Positions 5,504 to 57,574 of a stretch of 62,777 bases of DNA are shown here, piece by piece. How positions within the stretch are numbered: position 1 is the first letter of the stretch; every line of letters starts with the position of its first letter. The DNA comes from an uncultured virus (IMG/VR IMGVR_UViG_3300013137_002215) (Duplodnaviria > Heunggongvirae > Uroviricota > Caudoviricetes): IMG/VR virus record IMGVR_UViG_3300013137_002215; one strand, 5' to 3'. The translations under genes and the position numbers were made by a program. A model generated the notes under the pieces. The model was not told the DNA's origin, did no database searches, and saw nothing but the letters and a program-made list of their open reading frames with translations.

Positions 5504-5504
5504 C

Positions 5505-8670: not shown

Positions 8671-8672
8671 AC

Positions 8673-10916: not shown

Positions 10917-10930
10917 AAATATCCTTATTT

Positions 10931-11575
10931 TTATAGTTTATTCTTGTCATAACCAAAGTTATCAAAGTCAACAGAATAATATGAAGAAACCAGTTTTAAC
11001 GTTTGGGGATCATAAAAGTCTCTATAATTAAACTCCTTATGGACCTTACTTTCACATATATTACTTAATTGATCGGGAATTTTCATTTTTAACTCTGAAG
11101 CAATTTTTTTTACAGACTCACAATAATTTTCAAATCTTCCAACATAATTACAAAACATTTTCTTATTATATGTAAGCCATGATGTTTGCGTGTTTGCCTG
11201 GCTGTTACCAACCACATTAAAAAGCCCTATTGGACGAATCTTGTTTAGCCCTCCACAAAACAACCTAAATTCAGACATATATTTTTTTAAATCTTCACGA
11301 ATTATTTTTTTATGAGCTGAGACATATTTTATATAAAAAAATAAAGAAACACAGCGATCATATGGATTTCTAACAATACTAAACTTAAAACTATTATTAA
11401 AATAATCCATAGATATTAAATCTTTTTTAATAAGACTTCCTATATAAACGTGTCCAAATGATATTTTACCTTTAATTTTACTTTTTACAAAGTTATCTAA
11501 AATAGTCGTAAAACCTAAATCTGTAACCAGACTTCTACCCCCTGTTTTCGGGACATGAATAAAAATAGCGTTCAT
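10931..11575 (-). CDS. sulfotransferase family 2
   Basis: FIHVPKTGG, VRNPYDRCVS, GRFEN, DFDNFGY. Confidence 0.85.
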   Translation of the reverse strand: MNAIFIHVPKTGGRSLVTDLGFTTILDNFVKSKIKGKISFGHVYIGSLIKKDLISMDYFNNSFKFSIVRNPYDRCVSLFFYIKYVSAHKKIIREDLKKYMSEFRLFCGGLNKIRPIGLFNVVGNSQANTQTSWLTYNKKMFCNYVGRFENYCESVKKIASELKMKIPDQLSNICESKVHKEFNYRDFYDPQTLKLVSSYYSVDFDNFGYDKNKL

Positions 11576-11582
11576 TTACATC

Positions 11583-12182
11583 CTAAATTATGTTTTTATG
11601 TGGATGTTCTATAATTAAAAATGTTTTTATTCCTCTTAACTTCGTGGACATTTGAGGCTTATCTTTAACCACAAATCCACATTCTTTTATAAGAGTTTCG
11701 TATTCTTCCAAGGTTGCACCAAAAGGATCTGTCATATTACTATGCTCTACCAAACTGGCTATAGACCATTCTATTATGCAACAACCGGTTTTCTTAACAC
11801 AAGACATCCATGCTTTTAAACATTTTTTAGGATCGTAACTATGATCAAATGCATTGCTATATATAAAATCAACATTATCAACCCATTCTGGTTTTACCTC
11901 ATGAAAATCCCAACAAATAGTATTTGGATATCTTTCTGCGACATCGGTTATGTCCGTACCTATAACTTTGGCTTTTGTATGCTTTCCAAACCATTTTTGT
12001 TCATTTCCCTGTTTACATCCATGACAAATAGCAAATTTTATATCTCTATAGTTTTTTAATAAATAATTAGATAAAAACTCTATTTCTCTTTCATCACACC
12101 ATTGTCCGTCCGCATTAGCCTTATTACCAGCTATTTGCGTATTAACATAGTGTTTATATGACTTATACTTGTGTATTTTCAT
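11583..12182 (-). CDS. putative methyltransferase
   Basis: ICHG..GNEQ, GTDI, DFH, YSNAFDH. Confidence 0.65.
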   Translation of the reverse strand: MKIHKYKSYKHYVNTQIAGNKANADGQWCDEREIEFLSNYLLKNYRDIKFAICHGCKQGNEQKWFGKHTKAKVIGTDITDVAERYPNTICWDFHEVKPEWVDNVDFIYSNAFDHSYDPKKCLKAWMSCVKKTGCCIIEWSIASLVEHSNMTDPFGATLEEYETLIKECGFVVKDKPQMSTKLRGIKTFLIIEHPHKNII

Positions 12183-12913
12183 ATTATCCCCTTATTTTTT
12201 AATACCAAAACAGGCTGTACCGTTGCAAAACTATTACGACTAGATACTAATAACTCGTCTGACATTCCGTAAGTATCTACACACTCCCACCCATCTAATA
12301 ACAACTTAAGACGCATTTTACCATATACCCTATGCGCATTCCACATAACTCGATCTTCTCCTATAGGAACTGCAAGGAAAAATAAACCATCCTTTTTTAA
12401 GATGTTTTTTACATCTTGCATTGCCCTTATATCTCCCATAGGCGATATATTATCTCCATATCTCCCAAGTCCGGAATGTTCTATGCTGGAGATAGATATA
12501 CACACATCAAATTTAGGAAGGCTATTATAGGAATTATATTGATAATATTTTATTTTATCATAAGCACAAATTCTTTTATTATACTCCAAACAAGAGCATC
12601 CTTTACCGGAATAAACACATGCCATCGTTTCATACCATGGCTTTTCCGAACCAATAATAATAACATCTTTATCTTTTATACTATACTTTTGTAATGCCTG
12701 ATATAACCACATGTCGGTGTCATAATAATATAGGCCCTTTTTATTTTTAATTAGTTCTTCAAAAGATTTTATTTGTTGCAAAGTATATGTCCTAATTGTA
12801 TTACTGGGCCTCTTGGGTTTAAAATAGAACTCTTCTATTTTTATTTTGCCACCCATACTAAATTGTTCTTTTAAAATGCCTGACAACTTCATAATATGTC
12901 CACTTATTTCCAC
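12179..12913 (-). CDS. DUF268-like methyltransferase-fold protein
   Basis: GSEKPWYE, SSIEHSGLGRYGD, WNAHRVYG. Confidence 0.75.
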   Translation of the reverse strand: MEISGHIMKLSGILKEQFSMGGKIKIEEFYFKPKRPSNTIRTYTLQQIKSFEELIKNKKGLYYYDTDMWLYQALQKYSIKDKDVIIIGSEKPWYETMACVYSGKGCSCLEYNKRICAYDKIKYYQYNSYNSLPKFDVCISISSIEHSGLGRYGDNISPMGDIRAMQDVKNILKKDGLFFLAVPIGEDRVMWNAHRVYGKMRLKLLLDGWECVDTYGMSDELLVSSRNSFATVQPVLVLKNKGII

Positions 12914-13455
12914 AGTTCAAAACACAACTTGTTTTTCTTTACAAATTTTCGTATCTTCCTCTCTCTATGTTTAAATACACGCCTATCTTCATATTTCATA
13001 TATTGAGAATGAAATTCACAATATATTTTTTGAACTTTAAAAATTAAACCAGACCGTATCATTGCTTCAAGGATGTCATATTCCGAACTTTCCACGTCAA
13101 ATTTAATAACAACTTCATTATTTTTAGATATTAAATCTTCTATCATTTTCAATATATTAACGCAAGATACCTGTGTTGTATGCACATTCTCCGATAATTT
13201 ACTGTTATGATTACTTATAATACTTCCACCCAAACAAAATTCGCTAGAAAAATAAAACTGTCTGGTACAATCTTCTATATATACAGCACAATTGTAAATT
13301 ACAACATTAGCTTTGCCCCCGTATTGTTCAACTAATTTATTATAACAATTTTTATTAGGTTCAAATAAAATATAATTCCAATCATCACCATATATTTGTT
13401 TAAAATACTCATAACCCTGTCCCAAATTAGAACCACAATCTAAAAAATATTTCAT
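12904..13455 (-). CDS. FkbM family methyltransferase
   Basis: FLDCGSNLGQG, FEPN, KFDVESSEY, CEFH. Confidence 0.85.
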   Translation of the reverse strand: MKYFLDCGSNLGQGYEYFKQIYGDDWNYILFEPNKNCYNKLVEQYGGKANVVIYNCAVYIEDCTRQFYFSSEFCLGGSIISNHNSKLSENVHTTQVSCVNILKMIEDLISKNNEVVIKFDVESSEYDILEAMIRSGLIFKVQKIYCEFHSQYMKYEDRRVFKHRERKIRKFVKKNKLCFELWK

Positions 13456-13457
13456 TA

Positions 13458-14306
13458 TTACTTCCTTTTAGACAAATTGGTTTTTGACATTAATTCAGCA
13501 CACGCCAAAAAACTACTGCCCGAAGTTTTAAGGCGTAATGCAGTACGAGACAATAGAACCATATCACAAAACGCCTCTATACTAGCAGCTTTAGGTCTAT
13601 TAACATTGAAACTAAATACTCTGCCCATATTGTCTGTTATATTACTCTTCCACTCAGCATTAACACGAAGTTTTTCTACGTAGTTCTGCTTTTCAAACAA
13701 TAAAACGTTTCTATATTTTTTAAACCTCATCTCAATTTCTTTTTCATCCGAACACACAAAATACTGTTTGTCCGGATTATTTTTTACTTCGTTCTCTAAT
13801 TTATTTTCTCCAATATATAATGGCCTTCCATAATCCGTTTTTCTAATATGTACCCCATAACAATTTGACACATCATATTTAGATATATCAGTAAATATAT
13901 TGTCGGATATTTTCAATTCATTAATACTGTCTATTATTTCACCAGAATTAATAGAAGAATGCAGACAATTACTATAATAAAAAACATCAGATTCATCCGT
14001 CATTAATTTTACTATATCTTTTTGAGACAATTTACCATTAAGTATTATTTTGTTTTCTTTGTGTTTAATTTGAGACTCATGAACTAATAACACACACTTG
14101 TTTAAAATAAATTTGTCTATAAATTTAATATCAAAATTAGATATATTGTAATTACTAGCAAATATATCTGTAAGGTTACATCCACACCAGTTATTAGATG
14201 GCCAGTGAATAATAAAAGGTTTATTAGCCCTTTTAGCAAAAAATAAAGCAGAAAACATACTTAATAATCTATTCCCCAATCCACCATCACAATATATATG
14301 GATCAT
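13458..14306 (-). CDS. fucosyltransferase-like glycosyltransferase (NodZ/GT11/GT23-type)
   Basis: GGLGNRL, GVHIRKTD, FVCSD, SGSSF. Confidence 0.7.
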   Translation of the reverse strand: MIHIYCDGGLGNRLLSMFSALFFAKRANKPFIIHWPSNNWCGCNLTDIFASNYNISNFDIKFIDKFILNKCVLLVHESQIKHKENKIILNGKLSQKDIVKLMTDESDVFYYSNCLHSSINSGEIIDSINELKISDNIFTDISKYDVSNCYGVHIRKTDYGRPLYIGENKLENEVKNNPDKQYFVCSDEKEIEMRFKKYRNVLLFEKQNYVEKLRVNAEWKSNITDNMGRVFSFNVNRPKAASIEAFCDMVLLSRTALRLKTSGSSFLACAELMSKTNLSKRK

Positions 14307-14929
14307 TATAATCTCTTAAGTTTTTTTGGGTTATTACTACGAGTAAATGGTCCACCCATAAATACAACTATACCCATAAATTCTTCATAGGACATAAAAG
14401 GGATTTTTTCAACTTTTATCATTTTACAAAATACCAAATCATGCCATGTCTTTTCCAGTTTTATTATTTCGTATCCATATTTCTCAAAATAATTAAAAAA
14501 CTCCAAATCATAATACCACCTACAATGTCCATTCCAAGTTCCCACAATTGGCAACGCATGGATTACCAACCCTTTTACCCTTAACATGTTGTGCAAGTTG
14601 ATCCAACAATTATATTGCCCTATTTCTTCTTCTACGTGCTCTACAGTACCATAGTTTATTATTATATCCGCACAATTTTTCTCACTTGTCAATTTACTCA
14701 AATCAAACAATTCTATTCCCTTGCCACCACATAAATCCAAAGTTCTCCAAGTTTTAAATTTATTTTTATACAGCCCTCTTAATCTAGCGGGATTAAATTT
14801 TTTTCCAGAACATTCATCGTCTTGGTTTATTTCCTGATAACCCAATTCTATTATATCTAATTTAGAAGTATTAAGATTCTTTATTGATTGTATAAAATCT
14901 GGCAAAAGTATTTTTCTATCTAATCCCAT
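14306..14929 (-). CDS. putative methyltransferase
   Basis: IELGYQ, LDL, NYGTVEHV, HALP. Confidence 0.65.
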   Translation of the reverse strand: MGLDRKILLPDFIQSIKNLNTSKLDIIELGYQEINQDDECSGKKFNPARLRGLYKNKFKTWRTLDLCGGKGIELFDLSKLTSEKNCADIIINYGTVEHVEEEIGQYNCWINLHNMLRVKGLVIHALPIVGTWNGHCRWYYDLEFFNYFEKYGYEIIKLEKTWHDLVFCKMIKVEKIPFMSYEEFMGIVVFMGGPFTRSNNPKKLKRL

Positions 14930-14967
14930 TACAAATCTCCATCAAACACAGATATCGTATACTTATC
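14911..14967. repeat. 57-bp direct repeat, copy 1
   Basis: tttttctatctaatcccattacaaatctccatcaaacacagatatcgtatacttatc; one mismatch to 15694-15750. Confidence 0.95.
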
Positions 14968-15005
14968 CAATTTCATAACTGTTCCTATTATTTATCAACC
15001 CTATT

Positions 15006-15629
15006 TTAGAAATAAATTCTGTTATATCCAAAATTACTAAAATCTTCTTCAAAAACCATATTTATAGCACTATAATGCTTCTTTTTTAAATAATTAGCAT
15101 AATTTCTCCTATCAGAACGATAATAATGAGGAATGTCAACATTTTTCTTAACACCAAAAAGCAAAAGAATGTCTCTGACTGAGTTTTCAAAATCCTCAAA
15201 CCTGTAAATTTTATACATATTTTTTAATAACTCTAAGTGTTGGGTTTGAGACATAGCAACGTGCCAATATATAAATCTTAATTTTTTTAAATATGAATCA
15301 AAACCACTATTTTTCATAATCTCAGCATCTTTCACTATGAACCTAATCATTCTGTCTAAACTAAAATTACAAAAATTATTTTTTATACAGTATTTCCATC
15401 CAGATATAAATCTATCGTAAGGATTACGTACAATAGAAACAAATCTATAACTATCGCTATTAATTTCAGGATAACATTCCTTAATTTGTCCAAACTGACC
15501 CACTTTGTTTGCACCACCATTAAACACAGTGACATCTGCACAATCATTCAACATCTTGCTAATAGTAGTTCCTCCTGTTTTTGGTATATGAAGAAAAACT
15601 ATTTTTTTATTATGACATATGACGTTCAT
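15006..15629 (-). CDS. sulfotransferase family 2
   Basis: FLHIPKTGGT, VRNPYDRFIS, RFED, DFSNFGY. Confidence 0.85.
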   Translation of the reverse strand: MNVICHNKKIVFLHIPKTGGTTISKMLNDCADVTVFNGGANKVGQFGQIKECYPEINSDSYRFVSIVRNPYDRFISGWKYCIKNNFCNFSLDRMIRFIVKDAEIMKNSGFDSYLKKLRFIYWHVAMSQTQHLELLKNMYKIYRFEDFENSVRDILLLFGVKKNVDIPHYYRSDRRNYANYLKKKHYSAINMVFEEDFSNFGYNRIYF

Positions 15630-15631
15630 AT

Positions 15632-15712
15632 TATTTTATTAATTTATTTTTTGCCATTAAATCTGCACAGGCCTAAAAAACTACTACCAGACGTTTTTCT
15701 ATCTAATCCCAT
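15632..15712 (-). pseudogene. chimeric remnant: methyltransferase start fused to fucosyltransferase-like C-terminus
   Basis: MGLDRK (as in 14929 gene) followed by TSGSSFL and a frameshifted CADLMAK, similar to KTSGSSFLACAELMSK of the 13458 gene. Confidence 0.7.
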
Positions 15713-15750
15713 TACAAATCTCCATCAAACACAAATATCGTATACTTATC
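15694..15750. repeat. 57-bp direct repeat, copy 2
   Basis: matches 14911-14967. Confidence 0.95.
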
Positions 15751-15751
15751 T

Positions 15752-17083
15752 TTAGGGAACAAATCCCGTCTTAATACCCTTATTAAACGGAAACTTTCTA
15801 ATGCTCATCAAATTATGCAAAACATTTTTGTAATGTTTGTTTTTAAGATCAACAGAAAGCCATAAAAATTCTTGCACTACATCTTTATCTAAAAAAGGAT
15901 ATCTTGCCTCTATACCAAAAGATCCCGCAATATATTCTTCTTTGGTTAAATATGAGCGCTGAGAACTTTCATAAAAGCTTGGCCATGGAAATATGGTTTT
16001 AAGATCTTTTGGAAATAAACCACCAAAATTACTATGCCTAAATATTCTTCTGCCATTAAATCCATAATCAGAAAATATTTCATCTGCACCTTGACCAGAC
16101 AAATATATTTTCTTATTGTGTTTTTTAGCCATCATACAAATCATACAAATACCAGCCGAACCATGATCCCGATGCAGATTTAATTTATATTCATTATAAT
16201 CACCTTTTGAACAATATGTAACATAATTATACTCTTCTACGAAATCATTTAAGTGTTTTAGAGCTTTAAGTTTATTAGAAGAATCACTAATAACAATTTC
16301 ACAACCATTATCTATCAAATATTTGCGTCTTTTTTCCATTATATTTTTATCTTCTGAACCAATAACAGTATACGCACTAAATTTAACTTTTTGACTAATT
16401 AGTTCACTGGCAATTGAACCACTATCATACCCACTACTCAAACCTATAAAAATACTTTCCCTAACATTTTTCAAACACCTCTTATTAATAGAGTTATAAA
16501 ACGCAGTGTTCCAATCATCAAAATCTTTCTTATGTTGCTCTAAAGAAAACGAAAACACTTCGTACTTGTCTTTTTGATTTAAATTTGTATCAAAAATCAA
16601 AACATTATTAGGTCCAACTCTTTTTACTTCTTTAAATCCAAGTCTATCTGCGTTACTTTTATAGGAAGAAATACAGAAACCATCTTCGTCTCTGGCAATC
16701 CACATTGGTTTAGTCGCAAAAATATCTGTTGCCAATATAACGATATTTCTTGCAAAATCAAAAAGAACTATTGCGAACTCTCCATCCAGCTTCTTTACAA
16801 AATCTATTCCAAATTTTTTATATAGAGAAATTAAACATTCACCATCGGATTTATAATCACCAAAACTAAATGCATTGTATATTTCTCCGTTATATAGACA
16901 TACAATATTGTTTTCAACAAATGGCTGAACAGTGAAAGCGCCAGTTATGCTTAATAGATTATGTACAAAGGTTACATTGTTCTTTTTAATAATTCCAGTA
17001 TAATCGGGTCCCCTAAGTTTACTATATAAATTGATATAATCCAATTGTTTAATGTCTTTGTTTGTTATAATAAATCCGCACAT
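15752..17083 (-). CDS. asparagine synthetase-like glutamine amidotransferase
   Basis: N-terminal MCG, RGPD, YNGEIYN, LSSGYDS, LSGQGADE, RYPFLD. Confidence 0.9.
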   Translation of the reverse strand: MCGFIITNKDIKQLDYINLYSKLRGPDYTGIIKKNNVTFVHNLLSITGAFTVQPFVENNIVCLYNGEIYNAFSFGDYKSDGECLISLYKKFGIDFVKKLDGEFAIVLFDFARNIVILATDIFATKPMWIARDEDGFCISSYKSNADRLGFKEVKRVGPNNVLIFDTNLNQKDKYEVFSFSLEQHKKDFDDWNTAFYNSINKRCLKNVRESIFIGLSSGYDSGSIASELISQKVKFSAYTVIGSEDKNIMEKRRKYLIDNGCEIVISDSSNKLKALKHLNDFVEEYNYVTYCSKGDYNEYKLNLHRDHGSAGICMICMMAKKHNKKIYLSGQGADEIFSDYGFNGRRIFRHSNFGGLFPKDLKTIFPWPSFYESSQRSYLTKEEYIAGSFGIEARYPFLDKDVVQEFLWLSVDLKNKHYKNVLHNLMSIRKFPFNKGIKTGFVP

Positions 17084-17087
17084 TTTG

Positions 17088-18017
17088 TTAGTTATCTTTT
17101 AATTTAAAATAAACCTCAAACATATCTTTATACTCTTTAATTTTCTCTTTCCATGTCCAATTTTTCATAATTTCTTCATAAAATAGATTGCCACAGGACA
17201 ATCTAAACTCATCATTCTTCATTTTCTCTAAAGCTCCACATAAAACGTTAAAATCTCTTTTAATAATCAACCCACTCTTACCATTTACGATCATCTCTTC
17301 TGCTGCCCCACAATTAGTAGTAATAACGGGAACCTCCATTGCTCCTGCCTCTAGCGTAGGATTTTGAAGTCCCTCTGACTCAGACATACAAACATATAGG
17401 TCTATTTGATTATAAAATTTTGGCATTTGCTCTTTGGTTAATCTTTGACCATCATAACTTGCAAACACCAATTTATATCCAGTTTTTTCACAAGCTTTTT
17501 CAATGATATCAAATCCTTTATTGCCCTGAGAACCACGTCTTCCAACTATTCCAACAACAAGTTTATCGCGTCTTTCTTTTTCTGGATATAGTTTTTTGTC
17601 AAAGCAGGTTTCATCTACACCATGTCTAACCAATAATAATGGTTTATCTTTTACTATCGGTTCAAACACCTTAAATTGTCTTTTATTAACAACATGAAAA
17701 ACACAACACCTGTTTTTTATAGAAGATCCCCAATTAGGCATACCGTTCTCATATAATCCCTTAGCGCCATTAGGATGTTTTAAATACATAAATTCACACC
17801 TTAACCCCATAATAACTTTTTTAGGATCAGGATAACTCATTTGCATAGGGTCCATAATATAAATACAATCATATTGAGGTTCTAATTTAACAACATTAGT
17901 GCCCCTTGAAAAACCAATATCTATTTGATAATCATTACCTAATCGTTTCTTAATTTCTAATGCATGTCTATGAAAAATCCAACCAGGAATATCTGCAACT
18001 ATTAAAATTTTCTTCAT
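17088..18017 (-). CDS. glycosyltransferase family 4
   Basis: HGVD, KGFD, SESEGLQNPTLEAGAM. Confidence 0.85.
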   Translation of the reverse strand: MKKILIVADIPGWIFHRHALEIKKRLGNDYQIDIGFSRGTNVVKLEPQYDCIYIMDPMQMSYPDPKKVIMGLRCEFMYLKHPNGAKGLYENGMPNWGSSIKNRCCVFHVVNKRQFKVFEPIVKDKPLLLVRHGVDETCFDKKLYPEKERRDKLVVGIVGRRGSQGNKGFDIIEKACEKTGYKLVFASYDGQRLTKEQMPKFYNQIDLYVCMSESEGLQNPTLEAGAMEVPVITTNCGAAEEMIVNGKSGLIIKRDFNVLCGALEKMKNDEFRLSCGNLFYEEIMKNWTWKEKIKEYKDMFEVYFKLKDN

Positions 18018-18790
18018 TATAATCCCATATCTCTAACGATTCTAGAAATTGTATCATTGCCTGTTTTTAAAGTTTCCTCTGTATATCTTCTATTAAATTT
18101 TTGTGATGCTTGTAATCCACCAAACCAATGTAAAGCATAAGAGGTTTTAGGAATGTTAAATTTTCCCTCATATACACTTATAATCAAATCAGAAAATGGT
18201 ATTGGATAGAAATATTGTTGTGGAGCATTAAATAATCTGTTTTTATCTAAATGTGAAATCATATCTCGCATCATCCACGGACCCAAACTATTATAGTCAT
18301 TGGGATTATATTTTGAAGGTAAAGCTCTCATAATCGTATGTGTACTTTTAGATCCTTTCTCTGCACCTATTACACCTACTGGGCTATAATTACCATATGA
18401 ACAATAAATCATTTCTTTATCTAATGGCAATGTTTGAAATGATTTTAATATTATTTGATCGTTATCCAAATAAAAACCCCCAAAATTAAACAAATACCAC
18501 CATCTAAAAAAATCTGATTGATAATTTGGAGGATATCTTTTAAATATATCACATGGTACTATCTCTACATTCAAATCCTTTAATTTGTCTAAATAATCTA
18601 TACCTATTATACCGCCTTCAAAATCTTGTTTTTCTCTACCCCATTTAAATCCATCTTGTTTATATTCTTTAGACAAAAACAGTTGGATTTTAGCATCTGG
18701 ATGAAAATGCCGTAATGTCTTAAATGTCAAAAATCTTAAATAAGACAAACTTTTTCCTGCCCAAAATAATCCAAAATTTAAGCTTATCAT
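18017..18790 (-). CDS. DXD sugar-binding glycosyltransferase (GT32-like)
   Basis: SDFFRW..L..FGGFYLDND, GPW, FYP, HWFGG. Confidence 0.8.
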   Translation of the reverse strand: MISLNFGLFWAGKSLSYLRFLTFKTLRHFHPDAKIQLFLSKEYKQDGFKWGREKQDFEGGIIGIDYLDKLKDLNVEIVPCDIFKRYPPNYQSDFFRWWYLFNFGGFYLDNDQIILKSFQTLPLDKEMIYCSYGNYSPVGVIGAEKGSKSTHTIMRALPSKYNPNDYNSLGPWMMRDMISHLDKNRLFNAPQQYFYPIPFSDLIISVYEGKFNIPKTSYALHWFGGLQASQKFNRRYTEETLKTGNDTISRIVRDMGL

Positions 18791-19461
18791 CCCAAAGTCC
18801 CATTAATTCTTCTGTTATTAATTGCTCCAGGACTATTTAATGTCCAAATCGTAGGATGCAATATATGATACAAAAACCTGCCTTCAAATATATTTCTAGT
18901 TAATGACATTATCTTCCTGTGATAGTAAAAGTCCCATTCCGGCTCTCCTAATATCAAATCATTATTAAACCTCTTACTGCACTTTTTCCACCAATTAACA
19001 TTAAAAAATAAGGCATCAAAACCAGGATGATCTTTAACCTTAACTCTGAAGTTATTGGATTGAAATTTTAAGAAATCAACATCCGAAATATCAAACCGTT
19101 TAAATAAATATACATCTTTGTTATGTTTCTCAAATATACTGAATAGATTCTTTTGCACAAATATATCTGAATTTATATAGCCGAATATGTCACAAGGAAT
19201 ATTAGAGCATAAATCAAGAATCTCTTTTATATATGGCAGTGGACGGGGATTTCTAATAGTTACTTTTGAATTCCTTTTTAATGATTTACAAACATGAAAT
19301 TCTGGTGGCAATACGACATTCTCGTCACGATAATTAAAAGAAAATAACTGAACATTGCTGGACTTATTATTAACAAGCGTAATTAGAGCATCACGTTGAA
19401 TTTTAGCTTTCAACGTATTTCTATAATTAACATAATTAACTGCTACTATTATGCGTTTCAT
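18787..19461 (-). CDS. putative nucleotide-diphospho-sugar transferase
   Basis: GYINSDI, GFDALFF, GEPEWD, HILH. Confidence 0.55.
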   Translation of the reverse strand: MKRIIVAVNYVNYRNTLKAKIQRDALITLVNNKSSNVQLFSFNYRDENVVLPPEFHVCKSLKRNSKVTIRNPRPLPYIKEILDLCSNIPCDIFGYINSDIFVQKNLFSIFEKHNKDVYLFKRFDISDVDFLKFQSNNFRVKVKDHPGFDALFFNVNWWKKCSKRFNNDLILGEPEWDFYYHRKIMSLTRNIFEGRFLYHILHPTIWTLNSPGAINNRRINGTLG

Positions 19462-20216
19462 ACTCTTGGTAATATATATTCTGCCTTACCTATAAATCTT
19501 TTAGTTATTTTGGGAAAGTCATTAAATTTAGTAAGCGGATAAGGTTCTTTCTTTTTGTTTAACGTTGATAATGCTCGCTTCATTTTTTCTTGGTATTCTG
19601 GAATATTTACATATAACCTAGCATGTTCTATGTCCTTTATATCATTGTGACTACTAAAGCACCAATTAAAATGATAAACTGGCTTAGGAACATTATCAGG
19701 TCCAAAAGAAGGCTCTGTATCTCCTTCAAAACTCCATGCATCCCCCATTAATTGAATAGTGGCAATATTACGAATCATTCTTATAGCACTTCTATAACCT
19801 TCCTTACTAGGCTCCCATGCTCGTGTAAAATGATGAAATGGAAAAACAACAGAATTATATTTTTTCTCAGAAGCTATTTTTTTAATAAAAGGGATATTTT
19901 GTTCATGAATAACTTCGTCTGCCTGTAAATAATAAACATATTCACATTGCGCTTTTTTAATAGCATTTTGAGATACTATTTTTATTGCTTCGCCTAAATA
20001 AGATTTATCAGGCCACTTCTCTTGAAACAAGTTTATTTTAACTTTGTTTTTATAGTATTTTTTAAACTTAATCAGGTATTGAAGTGTATCGTCTGTAGAA
20101 AATCCCTCACCAATAATTATCTCGTTAGCTATTGGGAGGCAAGAACTTAGAGATTCCCAAAAACAATATCCCTGCTTAATAACATTCTTAGCGATAAATA
20201 CTACAGAGATTGACAT
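19458..20216 (-). CDS. glycosyltransferase family 2
   Basis: ISVVFIAKN, STDDT, YLQADE. Confidence 0.8.
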   Translation of the reverse strand: MSISVVFIAKNVIKQGYCFWESLSSCLPIANEIIIGEGFSTDDTLQYLIKFKKYYKNKVKINLFQEKWPDKSYLGEAIKIVSQNAIKKAQCEYVYYLQADEVIHEQNIPFIKKIASEKKYNSVVFPFHHFTRAWEPSKEGYRSAIRMIRNIATIQLMGDAWSFEGDTEPSFGPDNVPKPVYHFNWCFSSHNDIKDIEHARLYVNIPEYQEKMKRALSTLNKKKEPYPLTKFNDFPKITKRFIGKAEYILPRV

Positions 20217-39470: not shown

Positions 39471-40727
39471 TTATAAACGAGACAATTCTGGACATGCCAA
39501 AATCGTCTGATTTTCTGGTTTGTAACAGGAACCGTATTTTCCTGTAAGAAATCGCTGAACTATATTCAAGGCTGCATTTATGTCAGCATTGTCAGTATAA
39601 CCACAAGCCTGACACTTGAACACTTCACCATTACGATTTCTACTATCGGCTAAGTTACAGACTGGACATGTTATACTAGTATTATAAGGCAAAACTGTAC
39701 GAAAGGAAGTACGACTTTCTTCACACAGTTGTTCCAGCCTCATTAACCAGTAAGCATAATTCCAGCTACCGATAGAAGAACGAATATTTTTACTCAATCG
39801 TCCTTTGAGTTTTGAATTTGAGTTCAAATTACTAAGTTTCTCTACTACAACCAAATCCTTATCTTTAAGAACTTCTTTTGCTACTTCATTAATTCTTTGT
39901 TTAATAGTATTAATTGCTCTTTTCTTTCCCTTTGACCCTTTTTGACAGCGTTTAGATTTTTCAATTAGTTGTTTGATATCTGTTCCAAATTGTTCTTTTT
40001 CAGATGTTGAAGCTAAAGCATTAATTCCAGTATCAATTCCAATAATGTTTTTGACTTCTTTTTTAGGTCCAGTTTCTTTTTCAAAACCAAATTGAACATA
40101 ATCTTTAGTGATTATATAAGAATTAAGTCTTTGTGCTTTTTGTTGTAACTCTCTGTAGTGTTTATGGAATTTAATAGGAATATCAAGTGTTATCTTATTA
40201 CCAATAGAGGCTAAATGCAACCAAGCGTCAAATTCTTTAGTTTGTCTTTTAGGTTTCTGTAACTCTCCAATAGTACAAGAAACCGACATCTTTGTTCCTT
40301 TATGTTTTGGTTTATGTGGCTGAATCATTAATATCTTAGATTTGTTAGCTTTGAGTTTTTTATGCCAATTATTAATTTTTCTTCTGTTCTCTTTTGTATT
40401 TGGTTGGGTAATCTTAATCTTCTTTTCTAAAGCATCAATGGTATTTTGTATTTGTTCTTTGTTCCATTCAAAAACATTCTTAACTGAACTAACCATATCT
40501 ATTGCTTCTCTTGCTGCTACCTTTCTTAAACGAGCAGACAACCAAGTATCTTTAGGAATATCCACAATAGGTTTAAGCAATTGAGTCTTATCTACTTTCT
40601 TATCCCAAAAATAATCAATGAAGATATTAACTATTTTACCATACTCTTGAAGTATAGTTTGTAGTTCTATCTTCTTTTTATTTGTAGCGAATTTAACACT
40701 ACATTTACTTGACCTGATTATTTTCAT
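39471..40727 (-). CDS. tnpB: TnpB RNA-guided endonuclease
   Basis: RuvC GIDTG / VVEKL / NADINAA; Zn finger CPVC..CQAC. Confidence 0.92.
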   Translation of the reverse strand: MKIIRSSKCSVKFATNKKKIELQTILQEYGKIVNIFIDYFWDKKVDKTQLLKPIVDIPKDTWLSARLRKVAAREAIDMVSSVKNVFEWNKEQIQNTIDALEKKIKITQPNTKENRRKINNWHKKLKANKSKILMIQPHKPKHKGTKMSVSCTIGELQKPKRQTKEFDAWLHLASIGNKITLDIPIKFHKHYRELQQKAQRLNSYIITKDYVQFGFEKETGPKKEVKNIIGIDTGINALASTSEKEQFGTDIKQLIEKSKRCQKGSKGKKRAINTIKQRINEVAKEVLKDKDLVVVEKLSNLNSNSKLKGRLSKNIRSSIGSWNYAYWLMRLEQLCEESRTSFRTVLPYNTSITCPVCNLADSRNRNGEVFKCQACGYTDNADINAALNIVQRFLTGKYGSCYKPENQTILACPELSRL

Positions 40728-43263: not shown

Positions 43264-43379
43264 TAGTGGGGTAAATAGGAATCAAACCTACACTCGTTGG
43301 TTGCCTTTTTATTTGCTGAAAGTAACCTTTAAACAGATTCATTTTTATACCCACTGTGCTTCCGTTACACCACCGCCCC
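43264..43379 (-). ncRNA. tRNA-like RNA with a 49-nt anticodon loop
   Basis: acceptor GGGGCGG/TTACCCC, D arm GTGT/GCAC, T arm GTAGG TTTGATT CCTAT; loop 43301-43349. Confidence 0.6.
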
Positions 43380-43402: not shown

Positions 43403-43441
43403 AAAAACAAAAAACCCTTCCAGATTATCTCTGAAAGGGTT
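43403..43441 (-). terminator. attenuator terminator of tRNA operon 1
   Basis: AACCCTTTCAGA-GATAA-TCTGGAAGGGTT + TTTTGTTTTT. Confidence 0.85.
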
Positions 43442-43464
43442 AGCGATCCAAATTTTGGGTTAGA

Positions 43465-43533
43465 TTAGATCGTACCCCCTTCCAGATGTTCTTCTGGAAT
43501 CTCAATCATGGGGATATGAATTCTAATCGTCAT
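43465..43533 (-). CDS. leader peptide MTIRIHIPMIEIPEEHLEGGTI
   Basis: SD AAGGA and ATGA overlap with upstream ORF; Ile/His/Pro/Glu-rich; contains antiterminator TCTGGAAGGG. Confidence 0.8.
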   Translation of the reverse strand: MTIRIHIPMIEIPEEHLEGGTI

Positions 43534-44716: not shown

Positions 44717-45253
44717 TTATTTTCCCATTTTATACCAAGGACGAGCATCATCAAATACCTTACTACGACTTATTGCTGTTTTTCTAGCTTGTATCATTAT
44801 TGCATTCTTTTCTTCCATGCCTAATCCTGCTTCAGCACCTAATATATACGCATCTACTATTTGAATAGCTACATCCTGTTTTTCTTTCCATTCAGGGTGA
44901 GTAGCAAACAGCATATCTATCCCACCAAGTAATGATAATGCACCAGCTTTACATAATGGACGATATTGCGCCTCTATCTTAGTATCAATAAATATAACCA
45001 AAGCAGGATAGATCGTTTCAGTATATGTAGAACCAGCCTGTACTTCGTCTGCCTTATCCTTAATTATACTTAGTAATAATTTAACACCGGCTATTTCTTC
45101 GGTTGTTGGATTATCCATAGCTATCCAACCCACAGCAGTAAACAATCCTGCATTCTGTGCTACCACTTTAATTTGTTCAGTTTGGCATCCGGTGAATAAT
45201 AACGTCGATAAACATAACACCCCAACTAACACACTACTTGCTAACTGTTTCAT
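44717..45253 (-). CDS. putative lipoprotein
   Basis: signal peptide ending LLFTGC. Confidence 0.65.
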   Translation of the reverse strand: MKQLASSVLVGVLCLSTLLFTGCQTEQIKVVAQNAGLFTAVGWIAMDNPTTEEIAGVKLLLSIIKDKADEVQAGSTYTETIYPALVIFIDTKIEAQYRPLCKAGALSLLGGIDMLFATHPEWKEKQDVAIQIVDAYILGAEAGLGMEEKNAIMIQARKTAISRSKVFDDARPWYKMGK

Positions 45254-45798
45254 TTGTATCCCCTTCCTTTTTTTTCTTGTTTTGTTTTAACCATTTTAAC
45301 CGTAATATTGCGTTCAGTTTTTTTCCTAGAAACCTCTTTTCCTGCCACACATAGACTTACAATACTATTAAATTTCTCTTCTGCCAAGTTAAAAAAGTTG
45401 ATTTGCCTTCCTCTTAAGTTCATTTCCACCAACACATCGTCGCCCTCATTTAAAAACTCATTAATTTGTTTGACCTTATAATCTATATCGTGTTGTGCAA
45501 TATCTGGAGTGAACTTCATTTCTTTTAAATGTCTTTTACCGTGTTTTTCGTTTTCTTTTTGTTTCTTATCCTGTTCATATTTCCATTTGCCATAATTCAT
45601 CATTTTACAAAGTGGCAACTTGTTATTATCGCCTTTATCAATACATACGAGATCTAATCCATTATCATGTGCTTCGTGCATTGCAGTATATAAATCCATA
45701 TCTTCTTTATAACCACCTGACACATCTATAAGTCTTATTTTCCTGCTTAAACGAGTATTATTGGTAATTATAAATGCTGAATTAGAACCGTTATTCAT
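45250..45798 (-). CDS. infC: translation initiation factor IF-3
   Basis: IRLID, GLDLV, PLCKMMNYGKWKYE, LKEMKF.P.IAQHD, FL.EGD.V..RGRQ. Confidence 0.9.
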   Translation of the reverse strand: MNNGSNSAFIITNNTRLSRKIRLIDVSGGYKEDMDLYTAMHEAHDNGLDLVCIDKGDNNKLPLCKMMNYGKWKYEQDKKQKENEKHGKRHLKEMKFTPDIAQHDIDYKVKQINEFLNEGDDVLVEMNLRGRQINFFNLAEEKFNSIVSLCVAGKEVSRKKTERNITVKMVKTKQEKKGRGYK

Positions 45799-52374: not shown

Positions 52375-53733
52375 AAACGTGAGCAGAAACCCCGACATCT
52401 TTAGTGTCGGGGAGGTAAGCGAATTACTTAACCCGCTTCCTTCCACTTCTCCTTTGCTATTTATTATACCTAAAATATTTTAAGATTCAAGCAGGATTTT
52501 TCTTAAAAATATAGAATAACATAATTATGAACATATTAACATATAATATTAAATTAGAGTTTCAGAATCAAAAAGACAAAGATTCTCTGATTGATTTACT
52601 ATTAGAACATCAAAAAGTATGGAACTATATGTCAGAATATGTTTTTAAATCCAAAAAGGTAGATAAAAAGTTAATTCACGATAAAAACTATAAGAAATGC
52701 AGAAAACTGTTCCCAAATTGTCCTTCCCAAGTAGTTATCAGAGCAAAAGATTCGGTCTACGCTACCTATAGAACAATTCAGTCTAACAAACATAAATTAG
52801 AAGAATCCGCTAAACAAGAAAATCTATCAATAAGATTAGATAAGAGAATTTATACTTTTCTTCCAGATAATAAAATTAAACTAACAACCACTGGGAAAAG
52901 AATAACCTGCTCCTATACTCCTTATGACAAATTCAGAGATATGTTCTCTAAATATTCTGTTTGTGACCCATTACTTTTTGTTAGAAATAATGAAGTTTGG
53001 CTTTCGGTATCATTTGAAGTTTCAACCCCTACCCTTATAGAAGGTAGTTGTATCGGAGTGGATTTAGGCATAAAAAGATTAGCAACTACCTCTGAGGGAT
53101 TAACAATTACAGATAAGAAGTTCCTTAAAGAAAAAAGACAAATAAGACATCTAAAGAGTATATTAAAATCAAAAAGCAAAACTACTTTTTCCCGTTCTGC
53201 CCAAAGAAAACTAAAAAAACTAAAAAGAAAAGAGCATAACAAAAACAAGAACCAATCACATCTTATTGCTAACAAAATATTAGAAACCAAATCTAATGTT
53301 ATTGTTATGGAAGATTTGACTAAAATAAAGTCAGAAAATAAGGGAAAGAGATTTAATAATAGACAATCTCAAGTTCCCTATTTTGAGTTAAGAAAAATAC
53401 TAACCTACAAGGCACCATTATTAGGCAAAATAGTGGTAACGGTTGACCCTGCCTATACTTCTAAGAACGATTATAGAGGCATAGAAAAAGGCAAAAGACA
53501 GGGATGTAGGTATTACACAAGCGATAACAATGTTTTTGATGCTGATTGGAATGCGGCTATAAACATTGCTAATCGTTACGCCATGAGAAAGAAAGTTAAG
53601 GGCGTAGAACTCCCTGTTTCGTTTAATATACCTATTGATGGTAGATTAAACCTAATAGGCAAGCCATATCAACTGGCTAATTGTGAGATAAGGTCTTGCA
53701 AACCCAATGATCTTCAGTCATTAGGTAGTTGAT
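52375..53733 (+). mobile_element. IS200/IS605-type tnpB-only element
   Basis: left hairpin CCCCGACA-TCTTTAG-TGTCGGGG (52390-52412); right hairpin ACCCAATGA..TCATTAGGT followed by AGTTGAT; left boundary approximate. Confidence 0.8.
52527..53732 (+). CDS. tnpB: TnpB/Cas12f-like nuclease lacking the C-terminal Zn finger
   Basis: GVDLG, VMEDL, DPAYTS, DADWNAAINIA; no CxxC pairs. Confidence 0.88.
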   Translation: MNILTYNIKLEFQNQKDKDSLIDLLLEHQKVWNYMSEYVFKSKKVDKKLIHDKNYKKCRKLFPNCPSQVVIRAKDSVYATYRTIQSNKHKLEESAKQENLSIRLDKRIYTFLPDNKIKLTTTGKRITCSYTPYDKFRDMFSKYSVCDPLLFVRNNEVWLSVSFEVSTPTLIEGSCIGVDLGIKRLATTSEGLTITDKKFLKEKRQIRHLKSILKSKSKTTFSRSAQRKLKKLKRKEHNKNKNQSHLIANKILETKSNVIVMEDLTKIKSENKGKRFNNRQSQVPYFELRKILTYKAPLLGKIVVTVDPAYTSKNDYRGIEKGKRQGCRYYTSDNNVFDADWNAAINIANRYAMRKKVKGVELPVSFNIPIDGRLNLIGKPYQLANCEIRSCKPNDLQSLGS

Positions 53734-54895: not shown

Positions 54896-54993
54896 GGCTG
54901 GAGAGACAGGCTTCGCTCCTGCACACACACCCGATTAGAGGTGTCATGATCGGCTTAACAGGCCGACCCCTTGCTAGTTAGGGCAACTCTCCA
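54896..54993 (-). tRNA. tRNA-Asn(GUU), atypical (27-nt variable region, T-loop AGCGAAG)
   Basis: TGGAGAG/CTCTCCA, G73; TCGGC-CT GTT AA-GCCGA. Confidence 0.75.
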
Positions 54994-56515: not shown

Positions 56516-56677
56516 ACATATTAATTCAAAGAAATTAAAAAATATCCTGTGGTTATAAAGAATATCAACAAAAACAATAATCTAATAAGAATTATGTTCT
56601 TTTGTTTTAATATATTTTTATTAATCTTCATTGAATTTATATATATTTCAAAAAACTGTCAATTATTCCTTGATAAG

Positions 56678-56751
56678 TGGCAGATAAGGGACTTGAACCC
56701 ATACTTTCACGGATTATGATTCCGTAGCACTAGCCATTATGCTAATCTGCC
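56678..56751 (-). tRNA. tRNA-Met(CAU) elongator (or Ile2)
   Basis: ACGGA-AT CAT AA-TCCGT. Confidence 0.85.
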
Positions 56752-56756
56752 TTAAT

Positions 56757-56827
56757 CAGGAGCACTCCGACTTGAACGGAGACAAAAAATTTTGGAGATT
56801 TTTATGCTACCATTACATCATGCCCCT
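56757..56827 (-). tRNA. tRNA-Trp(CCA)
   Basis: AAAAT-CT CCA AA-ATTTT; G73. Confidence 0.88.
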
Positions 56828-56831
56828 AAGT

Positions 56832-56926
56832 TGGTGCGGGTAACAGGACTCGAACCTGCATTAGCCATAAGGCATCAGTTTCCACTTATCCTTATCTACT
56901 TAGAAGGTAGATGGAACTATACCCGC
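56832..56926 (-). tRNA. tRNA-Arg(UCU)-like RNA with rearranged D region
   Basis: GCGGGTA/TACCCGC-ACCA, canonical T arm, TCTAC-CT TCT AA-GTAGA nested within a GTTCCA/TGGAAAC stem. Confidence 0.65.
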
Positions 56927-56931
56927 AAAAA

Positions 56932-57007
56932 TGGTGCCCCTAGAAAGATTTCAACTTTCAACTATTTCTTAGGACGAAATTATTATGTGCAATTTCACTA
57001 TAGGGGC
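56932..57007 (-). tRNA. tRNA-Arg(CCU)
   Basis: ATTTC-GT CCT AA-GAAAT; encoded CCA. Confidence 0.85.
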
Positions 57008-57010
57008 AAT

Positions 57011-57086
57011 TGGCGGAGCCAGCGAAAGGTCGAATTCGCTATTTATCCGTGACAGGGATATGTTTTTCCACTTAAACTATGGCTCC
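57011..57086 (-). tRNA. tRNA-Asp(GUC)
   Basis: TATCC-CT GTC AC-GGATA; GCCA end. Confidence 0.88.
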
Positions 57087-57092
57087 AAAAAC

Positions 57093-57170
57093 TGGTAGCG
57101 GGTAAAAGGTATCGCGCCTTTTGTAGAGTAGCTTATGAGACTACCGCTGGTCTCTCCAGTCTAACCCGCA
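57093..57170 (-). tRNA. initiator-like tRNA-Met(CAU)
   Basis: U1-U72 mismatch; GTAGT-CT CAT AA-GCTAC; encoded CCA. Confidence 0.8.
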
Positions 57171-57178
57171 AAAATATC

Positions 57179-57253
57179 TGGTATTCTCTGTAGGATTTCA
57201 ACCTACAACTTCAAGTTCGTAGCCTGATATGATATGCATTTCACCAAGAGAAT
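57179..57253 (-). tRNA. tRNA-Arg(ACG)
   Basis: TCAGG-CT ACG AA-CTTGA; encoded CCA. Confidence 0.87.
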
Positions 57254-57387: not shown

Positions 57388-57424
57388 AAAAAAAAGCCCG
57401 TATCACTTGTCTGATACGGGCTTT
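57388..57424 (-). terminator. attenuator terminator of tRNA operon 3
   Basis: AAAGCCCGTATCA-GACAAG-TGATACGGGCTTT + T tract. Confidence 0.9.
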
Positions 57425-57444
57425 CCTTTTCTATGTCCCATTAG

Positions 57445-57516
57445 CTAGACAAAATGGGACAAAAGAATGCCCGTATAAGGCATCCTATCCCAACGATCTT
57501 GTCTTAGCGATATCAT
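57445..57516 (-). CDS. leader peptide MISLRQDRWDRMPYTGILLSHFV
   Basis: SD GAGGTG; AGA CAA GAT CGT TGG GAT AGG ATG; antiterminator ATACGGGC. Confidence 0.82.
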   Translation of the reverse strand: MISLRQDRWDRMPYTGILLSHFV

Positions 57517-57545
57517 TCTTAATACACCTCTATATCTTTGTTCTA

Positions 57546-57574
57546 AGATTATATAACTTTATCCTGCCTGTCAA
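57546..57574 (-). promoter_or_regulatory. sigma70-type promoter of tRNA operon 3
   Basis: TTGACA-17-TAATCT (or 15-TATAAT). Confidence 0.7.

What the first reader, a model, noticed from the sequence alone, without database searches (positions are those of the whole stretch)
56832..56926. tRNA-Arg(UCU)-like RNA with the anticodon arm nested in a non-canonical stem
The acceptor stem, CCA and T arm are perfect, but there is no D arm ahead of the anticodon arm. GTTCCA precedes the anticodon hairpin and pairs with TGGAAAC after it, and an extra GCC-TTAT-GGC hairpin follows. The AGA codon in the operon's leader hints that this RNA is treated as an AGA decoder; alternatively it is a decoy for tRNases.
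Basis: partly seen in the sequence, partly recalled or inferred. Interest (0 to 1): 0.72.

Follow-up and report, generated by a model that had tools for sequence, protein, structure and literature searches.

The report
Rearranged tRNA-like gene in phage cluster
A 95-base gene inside a lake phage's tRNA cluster has the ends of a leucine tRNA and the anticodon hairpin of an arginine tRNA but cannot fold into a cloverleaf, so it is most likely a rearranged tRNA whose use, if any, is unproven.

Summary
The described anatomy is real. Window 56832-56926 (- strand) encodes a 95-nt RNA with a 7-bp acceptor stem, A73, CCA, a T arm, a GCC-UUAU-GGC hairpin, no D hairpin, and a UCU hairpin enclosed by GUUCCA/UGGAAAC. 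It sits 3-5 nt from its neighbours in a seven-gene phage tRNA cluster.

It is a mosaic. The frame matches class II bacterial tRNA-Leu(UAG). The 17-nt hairpin is letter for letter the anticodon arm of canonical phage tRNA-Arg(UCU). A D-arm-like sequence is split around that hairpin.

ARAGORN (all modes tried) and the Rfam tRNA model do not call it; tRNA-Sec scores 25.2 bits against a cut-off of 47. Folding favours a long rod in which UCU is paired.

I found no homologue in any collection searched, so covariation cannot be tested. The only syntenic relative lacks it.

AGA is the phage's main Arg codon and stands in the cluster's leader peptide. However, it lies outside the six-codon cognate run, and AGA also occurs in another cluster's leader that has no Arg tRNA.

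Most likely this is a rearranged tRNA gene that is still excised as a tRNA-like RNA. An AGA decoder or a nuclease decoy is not excluded.

In passing: leader-peptide attenuators whose codons match the tRNAs downstream.

The parts
56832..56926 (-). The whole 95-nt tRNA-like RNA (5' G at 56926, 3' A of CCA at 56832)
   Evidence: Not called by ARAGORN or by Rfam at gathering scores.
56920..56926 (-). Acceptor 5' strand GCGGGUA (RNA positions 1-7)
   Evidence: Pairs 7 of 7 with 56836-56842 (pair probability 0.87-1.0). Identical to the 5' end of the bacterial tRNA-Leu genes.
56912..56919 (-). UA + GUUCCA (positions 8-15): 5' strand of the enclosing stem. UAGUU resembles positions 8-12 of the neighbouring tRNA-Asp.
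56895..56911 (-). UCUAC-CUUCUAA-GUAGA (positions 16-32): anticodon-arm hairpin. The anticodon UCU is at 56902-56904.
   Evidence: The same 17-mer is the anticodon arm of ARAGORN-called tRNA-Arg(UCU) genes in 5 of 9 IMG/VR loci. Predicted pair probability here is only 0.03-0.04.
56885..56894 (-). Its GG can pair with CC 13-14 as an alternative.
56878..56884 (-). UGGAAAC (positions 43-49): 3' strand of the enclosing stem. With the preceding AAG it reads AAGUGGAAAC, like the D loop and 3' D stem of tRNA-Asp at 57011-57086.
   Evidence: (tRNA-Asp alignment).
56864..56873 (-). GCC-UUAU-GGC hairpin (positions 54-63), in the place and of the form of a class II variable arm
   Evidence: Pair probability 0.99. 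Bacterial tRNA-Leu genes have UGCCUUUCGGC at the same place (L012).
56843..56859 (-). T arm GCAGG-UUCGAGU-CCUGU (positions 68-84)
   Evidence: Lies within the stretch that is identical in the 39 genome loci (25-mer pattern and printed flanks).
56832..56842 (-). Acceptor 3' strand UACCCGC, discriminator A, encoded CCA
56677..57253 (-). The tRNA cluster that holds it, in order: Arg(ACG), an atypical CAU tRNA (57097-57169), Asp, Arg(CCU), this RNA, Trp, Met. Spacers next to this RNA are 5 and 3 nt.
57388..57574 (-). Leader of the cluster. Promoter-like TTGACA 57574-57569 / N15 / TATAAT 57553-57548; SD 57530-57525; leader ORF 57516-57445 with AGA at 57502-57504; terminator 57429-57388.
   Evidence: Terminator from the tool. 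ORF and folds. Codon enrichment. The promoter is my reading and was not called by the scan.

Best explanation
This is a tRNA-derived mosaic gene inside a phage tRNA operon.

Anatomy:
- The frame is that of a class II tRNA-Leu(UAG)-type gene: the first 8 nt, the variable-arm hairpin, the T arm, the 3' acceptor strand, A73 and CCA.
- The 17-nt hairpin is a genuine tRNA-Arg(UCU) anticodon arm.
- A D-arm-like sequence (UAGUU ... AAGUGGAAAC) is split around that hairpin. The old D-stem strands therefore now enclose the anticodon arm instead of closing a D loop.

Inferred origin: an internal rearrangement of a long-variable-arm tRNA gene. A tandem duplication followed by deletions, or a template switch on the anticodon-arm palindrome, would do it.

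Inferred behaviour: it is transcribed with the cluster from the attenuator-controlled promoter. Because the acceptor/T minihelix and CCA are intact, it is probably cut out by RNase P and 3' processing as a stable ~95-nt tRNA-like RNA. It cannot form the cloverleaf or the D-loop/T-loop elbow, so it is most likely not an efficient AGA decoder. It would be a recent relic, or a by-product the phage tolerates.

Shown: the anatomy, the mosaic origin of the parts, and the failure of every tRNA model tried. Inferred: transcription, processing, loss of decoding and the route of rearrangement.
For: Failure of tRNA models:
- No tRNA call in six ARAGORN modes, including the intron and mitochondrial D-armless modes, nor at an 80% threshold over the whole window.
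- The Rfam tRNA model gives nothing on this RNA even at E <= 10. Only tRNA-Sec matches, at 25.2 bits against a cut-off of 47.

Mosaic origin:
- The 25-mer of T arm plus acceptor is identical in 39 genome loci. Of these, 36 are tRNA-Leu (34 UAG, 2 CAG), 2 are 3' fragments and 1 is cut by a contig end. One IMG/VR phage tRNA-Leu also has it.
- The 17-mer hairpin is the anticodon arm of tRNA-Arg(UCU) in 5 of 9 IMG/VR loci.
- The D-arm-like letters match the neighbouring tRNA-Asp.

Fold: the ensemble favours a rod with UCU paired. The anticodon-hairpin pairs have probability 0.03-0.04.

Conservation:
- The only syntenic relative, L050 (neighbouring amidoligase 52% identical), has Met-Asp-Trp at this place and no such RNA.
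- The covariance model finds only the RNA itself (125.5 bits). The next best hits are ordinary tRNAs: at most 29.7 bits in 282,426 bases of related loci, and at most 42.5 bits in four viral records.

A second degenerate tRNA-like gene lies in the same phage at 43267-43379, with about 41 extra nt in the anticodon loop and z = +0.44.
Against: - Every helix is intact: acceptor 7 of 7 pairs, T arm, variable hairpin, anticodon hairpin.
- GC is 0.46 in a 0.27-0.37 GC genome.
- It keeps the 3-5 nt spacing and the U-rich 5' spacer of the cluster.
- The sequence is identical in a second sample.
- The phage uses AGA for 55% of its Arg codons, yet no canonical tRNA-Arg(UCU) was found in the 62.8 kb seen.
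- The leader carries AGA next to the cognate run.
- This lineage keeps other odd but conserved tRNAs, for example tRNA-Asn with a long variable arm and atypical D and T loops in both the window and L050. Odd shape alone is therefore no proof of decay.
- A recent relic and a selected RNA cannot be told apart from a single sequence.
Confidence: 0.45

Rival explanations
1. It is a working, non-canonical tRNA that reads AGA. It would be a D-arm-less tRNA with a long composite anticodon branch (6+6 bp, or 4-5+9 bp). One of two GG-containing loops (UAAGGAU or AAGUGGAA) would stand in for the D loop against the canonical T loop, and ArgRS would charge it through C35/U36 and A73.
For: - Exact tRNA-Arg(UCU) anticodon arm with U33 and A37.
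- AGA is the main Arg codon and means Arg.
- No canonical Arg(UCU) in the window, beside Arg(ACG) and Arg(CCU).
- The leader holds AGA, CGT and AGG once each, while the relative without Arg tRNAs has no Arg codon in its leader.
- Acceptor, T arm and CCA are intact.
- The lineage has other conserved atypical tRNAs.
- D-arm-less tRNAs do work in mitochondria (PMC7609411, passages seen).
Against: - ARAGORN's mitochondrial modes do not call it.
- The anticodon branch is longer than the usual D stem plus anticodon stem, and its topology differs: the arm is enclosed by the D-stem strands.
- The predicted ensemble buries UCU.
- The frame is Leu-like, not Arg-like.
- AGA lies outside the six-codon cognate run and also occurs in a leader whose cluster has no Arg tRNA.
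- There are no homologues, so no covariation.
Confidence: 0.2
2. It is a functional tRNA-like RNA that does not decode. The tRNA frame would give processing and stability. The displayed Arg(UCU) anticodon stem-loop, or the long rod, would act as a decoy or sponge for a host anticodon nuclease or a tRNA-binding defence or modification protein.
For: - A stable frame with an exact anticodon stem-loop.
- Placement in an operon that responds to decoding shortage.
- A bacterial pseudo-tRNA with a non-translational role is on record: tRNAOther of Bacillus cereus (PMC3399842; only the abstract start in the listing was seen).
- Phage tRNA sets as counter-defence to tRNA nucleases is from my recall, not from a call.
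Against: - No partner protein or nuclease is identified. The 78 ORFs scanned with Pfam or PHROGs show no RNA-repair or tRNA enzyme; only an IF3 homologue relates to translation.
- No conservation.
- One copy among seven genes is a weak sponge.
Confidence: 0.2
3. It is chance or an artefact: a mis-assembly, or a random sequence that happens to fold.
For: It is a singleton, and the enclosing stem alone is only modestly better than chance.
Against: - Identical sequence in a contig of a second study.
- A stretch of about 28 nt identical to tRNA-Leu genes and a 17-mer identical to tRNA-Arg arms.
- Whole-RNA z = -3.06.
- Exact fit in the cluster's spacing.
Confidence: 0.03

Closest known systems
Class II bacterial tRNA-Leu(UAG), as in Oscillospiraceae, other Clostridia and Acholeplasmatales genomes
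   Same: The first 8 nt, the T arm, the 3' acceptor strand, A73 and CCA are identical. The variable-arm hairpin is the same type: UGCCUUAUGGC here, UGCCUUUCGGC in L012.
   Different: The D arm and anticodon arm (about 35 nt) are replaced by a 44-nt composite arm, and the anticodon is UCU rather than UAG.
Canonical phage tRNA-Arg(UCU)
   Same: The 17-nt anticodon arm is identical in 5 IMG/VR genes, and A precedes the stem as A26 does there.
   Different: The acceptor, D arm, variable region and T arm are unrelated. Here the arm is enclosed by a stem rather than following a closed D arm.
D-arm-lacking mitochondrial tRNA-Ser(AGY/AGN) (type III mt-tRNA; PMC7609411, passages)
   Same: No D hairpin, and the acceptor runs almost directly into an extended anticodon branch.
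   Different: Those are short (about 60 nt) and have no variable hairpin. This RNA is 95 nt and comes from a phage of bacteria. ARAGORN's mitochondrial modes do not call it.
tRNA-Sec and allo-tRNAs (PMC5389517, abstract and passages)
   Same: About 95 nt, a possible 6-bp anticodon stem and an extra arm. The weak Rfam tRNA-Sec match scores 25.2 bits.
   Different: The acceptor/T split is 7/5, not 8/5, 8/4 or 9/3. There is no closed 6-bp D arm, the anticodon is not UCA, and the score is below the cut-off of 47.
Non-decoding tRNA-like RNAs: tRNAOther of Bacillus cereus (PMC3399842, abstract start seen), and the stable RNAs encoded in the T4 tRNA region (recalled, not checked here)
   Same: A tRNA-like gene that is probably processed like a tRNA without serving in translation. 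The T4 case also lies within a phage tRNA cluster.
   Different: No sequence relation was tested or found, and no role is known here.

Membership tests
Canonical tRNA (Rfam RF00005) | Cloverleaf with a closed D arm between the acceptor and anticodon arms | tested here: not met
   Only 8 nt (UAGUUCCA) lie between the acceptor stem and the UCU hairpin. No RF00005 match on this RNA at gathering score or at E <= 10. No ARAGORN call.
Canonical tRNA (Rfam RF00005) | 7-bp acceptor stem, 5-bp T stem with a UUCRANY-type loop, and a discriminator followed by CCA | tested here: met
Canonical tRNA (Rfam RF00005) | A short intron whose removal restores a cloverleaf | tested here: not met
   Of 1580 single-deletion variants, 37 are called by ARAGORN. 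All are 'tRNA-Ile(GAU)' using an anticodon stem with only 2 Watson-Crick pairs and 1 G.U out of 5.
tRNA-Sec (Rfam RF01852) | Score at or above the gathering cut-off, UCA anticodon, 8/5-type acceptor/T split, closed 6-bp D arm | tested here: not met
   25.2 bits against 47. The anticodon is UCU, the split is 7/5, and the D arm is reduced to 3 nt in the alignment.
allo-tRNA (8/4 or 9/3; PMC5389517) | A 12-bp acceptor branch split 8/4 or 9/3 | tested here: not met
   The split is 7/5. An eighth pair would be U8 opposite U84, which the T stem already uses.
D-arm-less (mitochondrial type) tRNA | Recognised by a detector built for D-armless tRNAs | tested here: not met
   ARAGORN -mt and -mtx give no call at this place.
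D-arm-less (mitochondrial type) tRNA | Aminoacylation and decoding | not testable with these tools
   No RNA run holds the stretch and there is no biochemistry.
tmRNA | tRNA-like domain with G3.U70 and a tag reading frame | tested here: not met
   ARAGORN finds no tmRNA. Pair 3-70 is G-C. The 95 nt leave no room for a tag frame.
Class II tRNA-Leu | Leu anticodon and a closed 3-bp D arm with a GG-bearing loop ahead of the anticodon arm | tested here: not met
   The anticodon is UCU. GUU/AAC closes a 34-nt loop that holds the anticodon hairpin. The frame is otherwise identical to tRNA-Leu.

The most novel reading that the evidence does not exclude
This is a working AGA-reading tRNA of a new architecture: a bacterial-virus tRNA with no D arm. 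Its anticodon arm would be nested between the former D-stem strands on a class II (Leu-type) frame, and it would be made under a leader-peptide attenuator that senses shortage of the very codons the operon's tRNAs read. It would be the first D-arm-less decoder outside mitochondria.
Probability: 0.13. Interest if true: 0.85.

Novelty: new variant of a known kind. Interest (0 to 1): 0.5.

Why it matters
If it is only a relic, it is a clean example of how phage tRNA genes are rebuilt from parts of different tRNAs. It is also a warning that tRNA counts from standard tools miss or mislabel such genes.

If it decodes or acts as a decoy, it widens the range of shapes that the translation or defence machinery accepts.

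The locus matters more for its context. The same operon, a second operon in this phage and two operons in its relative are each preceded by a short reading frame enriched in the codons of the tRNAs downstream. Each frame is followed by a terminator/antiterminator pair. This suggests that the phage makes its tRNAs on demand, and a reporter assay can test it directly.

Tried and rejected
**Searches for homologues (none found)**
- blastn of 701 bases against GenBank phages gave no match.
- IMG/VR pattern scans with three pieces of the RNA: the 25-mer found one ordinary tRNA-Leu; the 17-mer of the bulge and stem found 7 loci, all unrelated sequence; the hairpin 17-mer found tRNA-Arg genes and coding sequence.
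- Two neighbouring proteins used as single queries in IMG/VR returned no confirmed relatives.
- An alignment of amidoligase relatives returned 53 metagenome loci and 7 IMG/VR loci. None holds the RNA by blastn-short (53 metagenome loci) or by the covariance model (one search covered the window and 25 of the 53 loci, chosen for length or for carrying tRNAs; of the 7 IMG/VR loci only the whole record behind L117 was searched, and L118-L123 were not).

**Readings rejected**
- Intron: rejected.
- tRNA-Sec, allo-tRNA, mitochondrial type, tmRNA: rejected.
- AGA read as Leu through a Leu-type frame: rejected. Three of the four invariant Arg positions of the amidoligase alignment are AGA codons.
- CRISPR-repeat mimic: the UCUAC/GUAGA stem recalled to me a Cas12a repeat. 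This is recall only. No CRISPR-DR family matched in the E <= 10 scan, and the loop is a perfect tRNA-Arg loop, so I dropped the idea.
- Kinship with the phage of L001: rejected. Its best match to the window's helicase has E = 2e-4.

**Checks that could not be made**
- Expression: no RNA holder is listed among the public runs.
- Strain variation: the two runs show no differences over the RNA, so there is no population signal.
- Whole genome and earlier findings: not available.

Full report
**Setting**

The window is phage-like. GC is 0.27-0.37. Of the 65 ORFs of 150 aa or more, 62 lie on the - strand, often overlapping end to start. There are PHROG and Pfam hits to a RecD/Dda-type helicase, ThyX, gp30.3, LpxR, two TnpB-like proteins, many glycosyl-, sulfo- and methyltransferases, and an IF3 homologue.

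No whole genome is held. The protein collection records the source contig as 124,777 bases. The same DNA occurs in two lake-water runs from two studies. The nearest GenBank phages share 30% identity or less with the helicase.

**The observation**

On the - strand, 56926 to 56832 reads GCGGGUA UA GUUCCA UCUAC CUUCUAA GUAGA UAAGGAUAAG UGGAAAC UGAU GCC UUAU GGC UAAU GCAGG UUCGAGU CCUGU UACCCGC A CCA.

The gene lies between tRNA-Arg(CCU) (57007-56932) and tRNA-Trp (56828-56756), with spacers of 5 and 3 nt. The cluster reads Arg(ACG), an atypical CAU tRNA, Asp, Arg(CCU), this RNA, Trp, Met.

- The whole RNA folds better than all of 200 shuffles (z = -3.06).
- The enclosing stem by itself is only modestly unusual: 893 of 20000 flank shuffles and 379 of 20000 random flanks match it.
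- The ensemble prefers a continuous rod in which UCU pairs with AGA.
- CC(13-14) can pair with either GG(36-37) or GG(44-45). Either way, one UAAG..GGA loop stays single-stranded.

**It is not a recognisable tRNA**

- ARAGORN does not call it in default, intron, 80%-threshold or mitochondrial modes.
- Rfam gives no tRNA match at gathering score or at E <= 10. The only hit is tRNA-Sec at 25.2 bits against a cut-off of 47.
- Removing any single segment does not restore a credible cloverleaf. Of 1580 variants, 37 are called, all through a stem with 2 Watson-Crick pairs and 1 G.U out of 5.

**It is a mosaic of real tRNA parts**

- The 25-mer covering the T loop, the 3' acceptor strand and CCA is identical in 39 loci of bacterial genomes. 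Of these, 36 are full class II tRNA-Leu genes (34 UAG, 2 CAG) that also begin GCGGGUAU; 2 are 3' fragments and 1 is cut by a contig end.
- One IMG/VR phage, unrelated by its helicase, has the same frame in an ordinary tRNA-Leu.
- The small hairpin UGCCUUAUGGC stands where those genes have their variable arm, for example UGCCUUUCGGC.
- The 17-mer UCUACCUUCUAAGUAGA is the exact anticodon arm of ARAGORN-called tRNA-Arg(UCU) genes in 5 of 9 IMG/VR loci. The other 4 are unrelated sequence.
- UAGUU and AAGUGGAAAC resemble the D arm of the neighbouring tRNA-Asp, UAGUUUAAGUGGAAAAAC, but lie on either side of the anticodon hairpin.

The simplest reading is therefore a long-variable-arm tRNA gene in which the anticodon arm and the D-loop/3' D-stem segment have changed places. 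On that reading the 'enclosing stem' is largely the old D stem. This is inference; I have no intermediate form.

**No relatives**

- blastn against GenBank phages gave nothing.
- Three pattern scans of IMG/VR gave nothing of this kind.
- The neighbouring amidoligase has relatives of at most 58% identity.
- An alignment of those relatives fetched 53 metagenome loci and 7 IMG/VR loci.
- Only L050 (52% identity) is syntenic. It has tRNAs Met-Asp-Trp just upstream of the amidoligase, and Asn and Gln downstream. It has no Arg tRNA and nothing like this RNA.
Everything else is an ordinary tRNA: at most 29.7 bits in 282,426 bases (the window and 25 of the 53 loci), and at most 42.5 and 24.1 bits in four viral records.
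- The second run carries the identical sequence over 86 of the 95 nt.

**The AGA argument**

AGA is the commonest Arg codon: 343 of 620 in 59 long ORFs. It encodes three of the four invariant Arg positions of the amidoligase alignment, so it means Arg.

Upstream of the cluster lie, in order:
- a TTGACA/N15/TATAAT pair (my reading; the scan did not call it);
- a Shine-Dalgarno sequence;
- a 23-codon frame, MISLRQDRWDRMPYTGILLSHFV;
- a strong terminator at 57429-57388.

Codons 7-12, GAT CGT TGG GAT AGG ATG, are all read by tRNAs the cluster encodes. Only 1 of 16,277 six-codon windows in the phage's own ORFs does as well.

The frame also contains AUACGGGC, a copy of the terminator's 3' strand. 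With the first 40 nt masked, as by a stalled ribosome, the rest folds into an antiterminator of -29.1 kcal/mol. Unmasked, a 1:2 hairpin and the terminator form.

The same design recurs three times:
- Window 43533-43465: Ile, His, Pro and Glu codons before tRNAs His, Ile, Glu and Pro. Twelve of 14 codons are cognate, matched by 0 of 15,805 background windows. The tool calls the terminator.
- L050 4927-5013: Met, Asp and Trp codons before tRNAs Met, Asp and Trp. The hairpin with its U run comes from folding only; the scan did not call it.
- L050 8078-8137: Asn and Gln codons before tRNAs Asn and Gln, with a tool-called terminator.

Of 65 clusters or single tRNAs examined in all fetched loci, only these four have an upstream short frame with at least 5 of 6 cognate codons.

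So the leader does track the operon's tRNAs. In addition, the window's leader has three Arg codons (AGA, CGT, AGG) where the relative, which lacks Arg tRNAs, has none.

The link to this RNA is weak, for four reasons:
- One each of the three codon classes is expected about 15% of the time from usage alone (my arithmetic on the counts).
- AGA is codon 5, separated from the run by CAA.
- A ribosome paused at codon 5 would hardly reach the inner 1:2 hairpin (inference).
- AGA is also codon 4 of the other window leader, whose cluster has no Arg tRNA.

**Verdict**

- Most likely (0.45): a rearranged tRNA gene that is still transcribed and excised as a tRNA-like RNA but no longer decodes.
- A non-canonical AGA decoder: 0.2.
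- A non-decoding decoy or scaffolded hairpin: 0.2.
- Chance or artefact: largely excluded.

**Literature**

- Non-canonical natural tRNAs on record include Sec, allo-, Pyl and D-arm-less mitochondrial tRNAs (PMC7609411, passages; PMC5389517, abstract and passages).
- I saw no D-arm-less or nested-arm tRNA of a phage in four searches (and the passages above).
- I saw no leader-peptide attenuation of a tRNA operon in two searches. The library lacks most subscription journals, so this is not proof of absence.

Noticed in passing
window 57388-57574 (-); window 43413-43533 (-); L050 4830-5075 (+); L050 8043-8178 (+): Leader-peptide attenuators stand in front of phage tRNA clusters. Each has a short frame rich in exactly the codons read by the tRNAs downstream. 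Each frame holds a copy of the terminator's 3' strand, which gives an antiterminator. Four cases occur in two related phages, and none at the other 61 tRNA sites examined. Cognate runs: 6 of 6 codons (1 of 16,277 background windows) and 12 of 14 codons (0 of 15,805). This looks like on-demand control of tRNA synthesis by ribosome stalling. Two literature searches listed nothing like it.
   Followed up: partly
window 54896-54993 (-); L050 8204-8288 (+): A tRNA-Asn(GUU) with U1-A72 and G73 but a long variable arm (class II-like), no GG in the D loop and no UUC in the T loop (AGCGAAG and GGCGGAG). It is kept in both phages, with different stem sequences.
   Followed up: partly
window 57097-57169 (-); L050 5259-5345 (+): An atypical CAU tRNA-like gene. 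In the window it has T loop CGCGAUA, a CUGG-AGAGA-CCAG D arm and a U.U at the top of the acceptor stem, and ARAGORN calls it only at an 80% threshold. The L050 counterpart is 87 nt, with a long variable arm and T loop AUCGUAC.
   Followed up: partly
window 43267-43379 (-): A 113-nt tRNA-like gene, the first after the cluster-1 terminator. It scores 29.9 bits on the Rfam tRNA model with about 41 extra nt in the anticodon loop. The acceptor stem is weak and the fold is no better than shuffles (z = +0.44).
   Followed up: partly
window 45250-45798 (-): A phage-encoded homologue of translation initiation factor IF3, with both the N and C domains.
   Followed up: no
window 39471-40727 (-), 52527-53732 (+); L050 up to about 4790 (+): TnpB/Cas12f-like genes, two in the window. 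In L050, what I read as the 3' end of another (no family scan was run) ends about 40 nt before the promoter of the tRNA-cluster leader.
   Followed up: no
window 561-20216 (-): A run of about 20 genes for glycosyl-, sulfo- and methyltransferases, NeuB, a cytidylyltransferase and an asparagine-synthase-like enzyme. This is a large glycan-building block in a phage.
   Followed up: no
L019, L047 (genome contigs): Isolated 3' halves of tRNA-Leu(UAG), from the variable arm to CCA, beside unrelated sequence in Oscillospiraceae MAGs. They look like att-site remnants of integrated elements.
   Followed up: no
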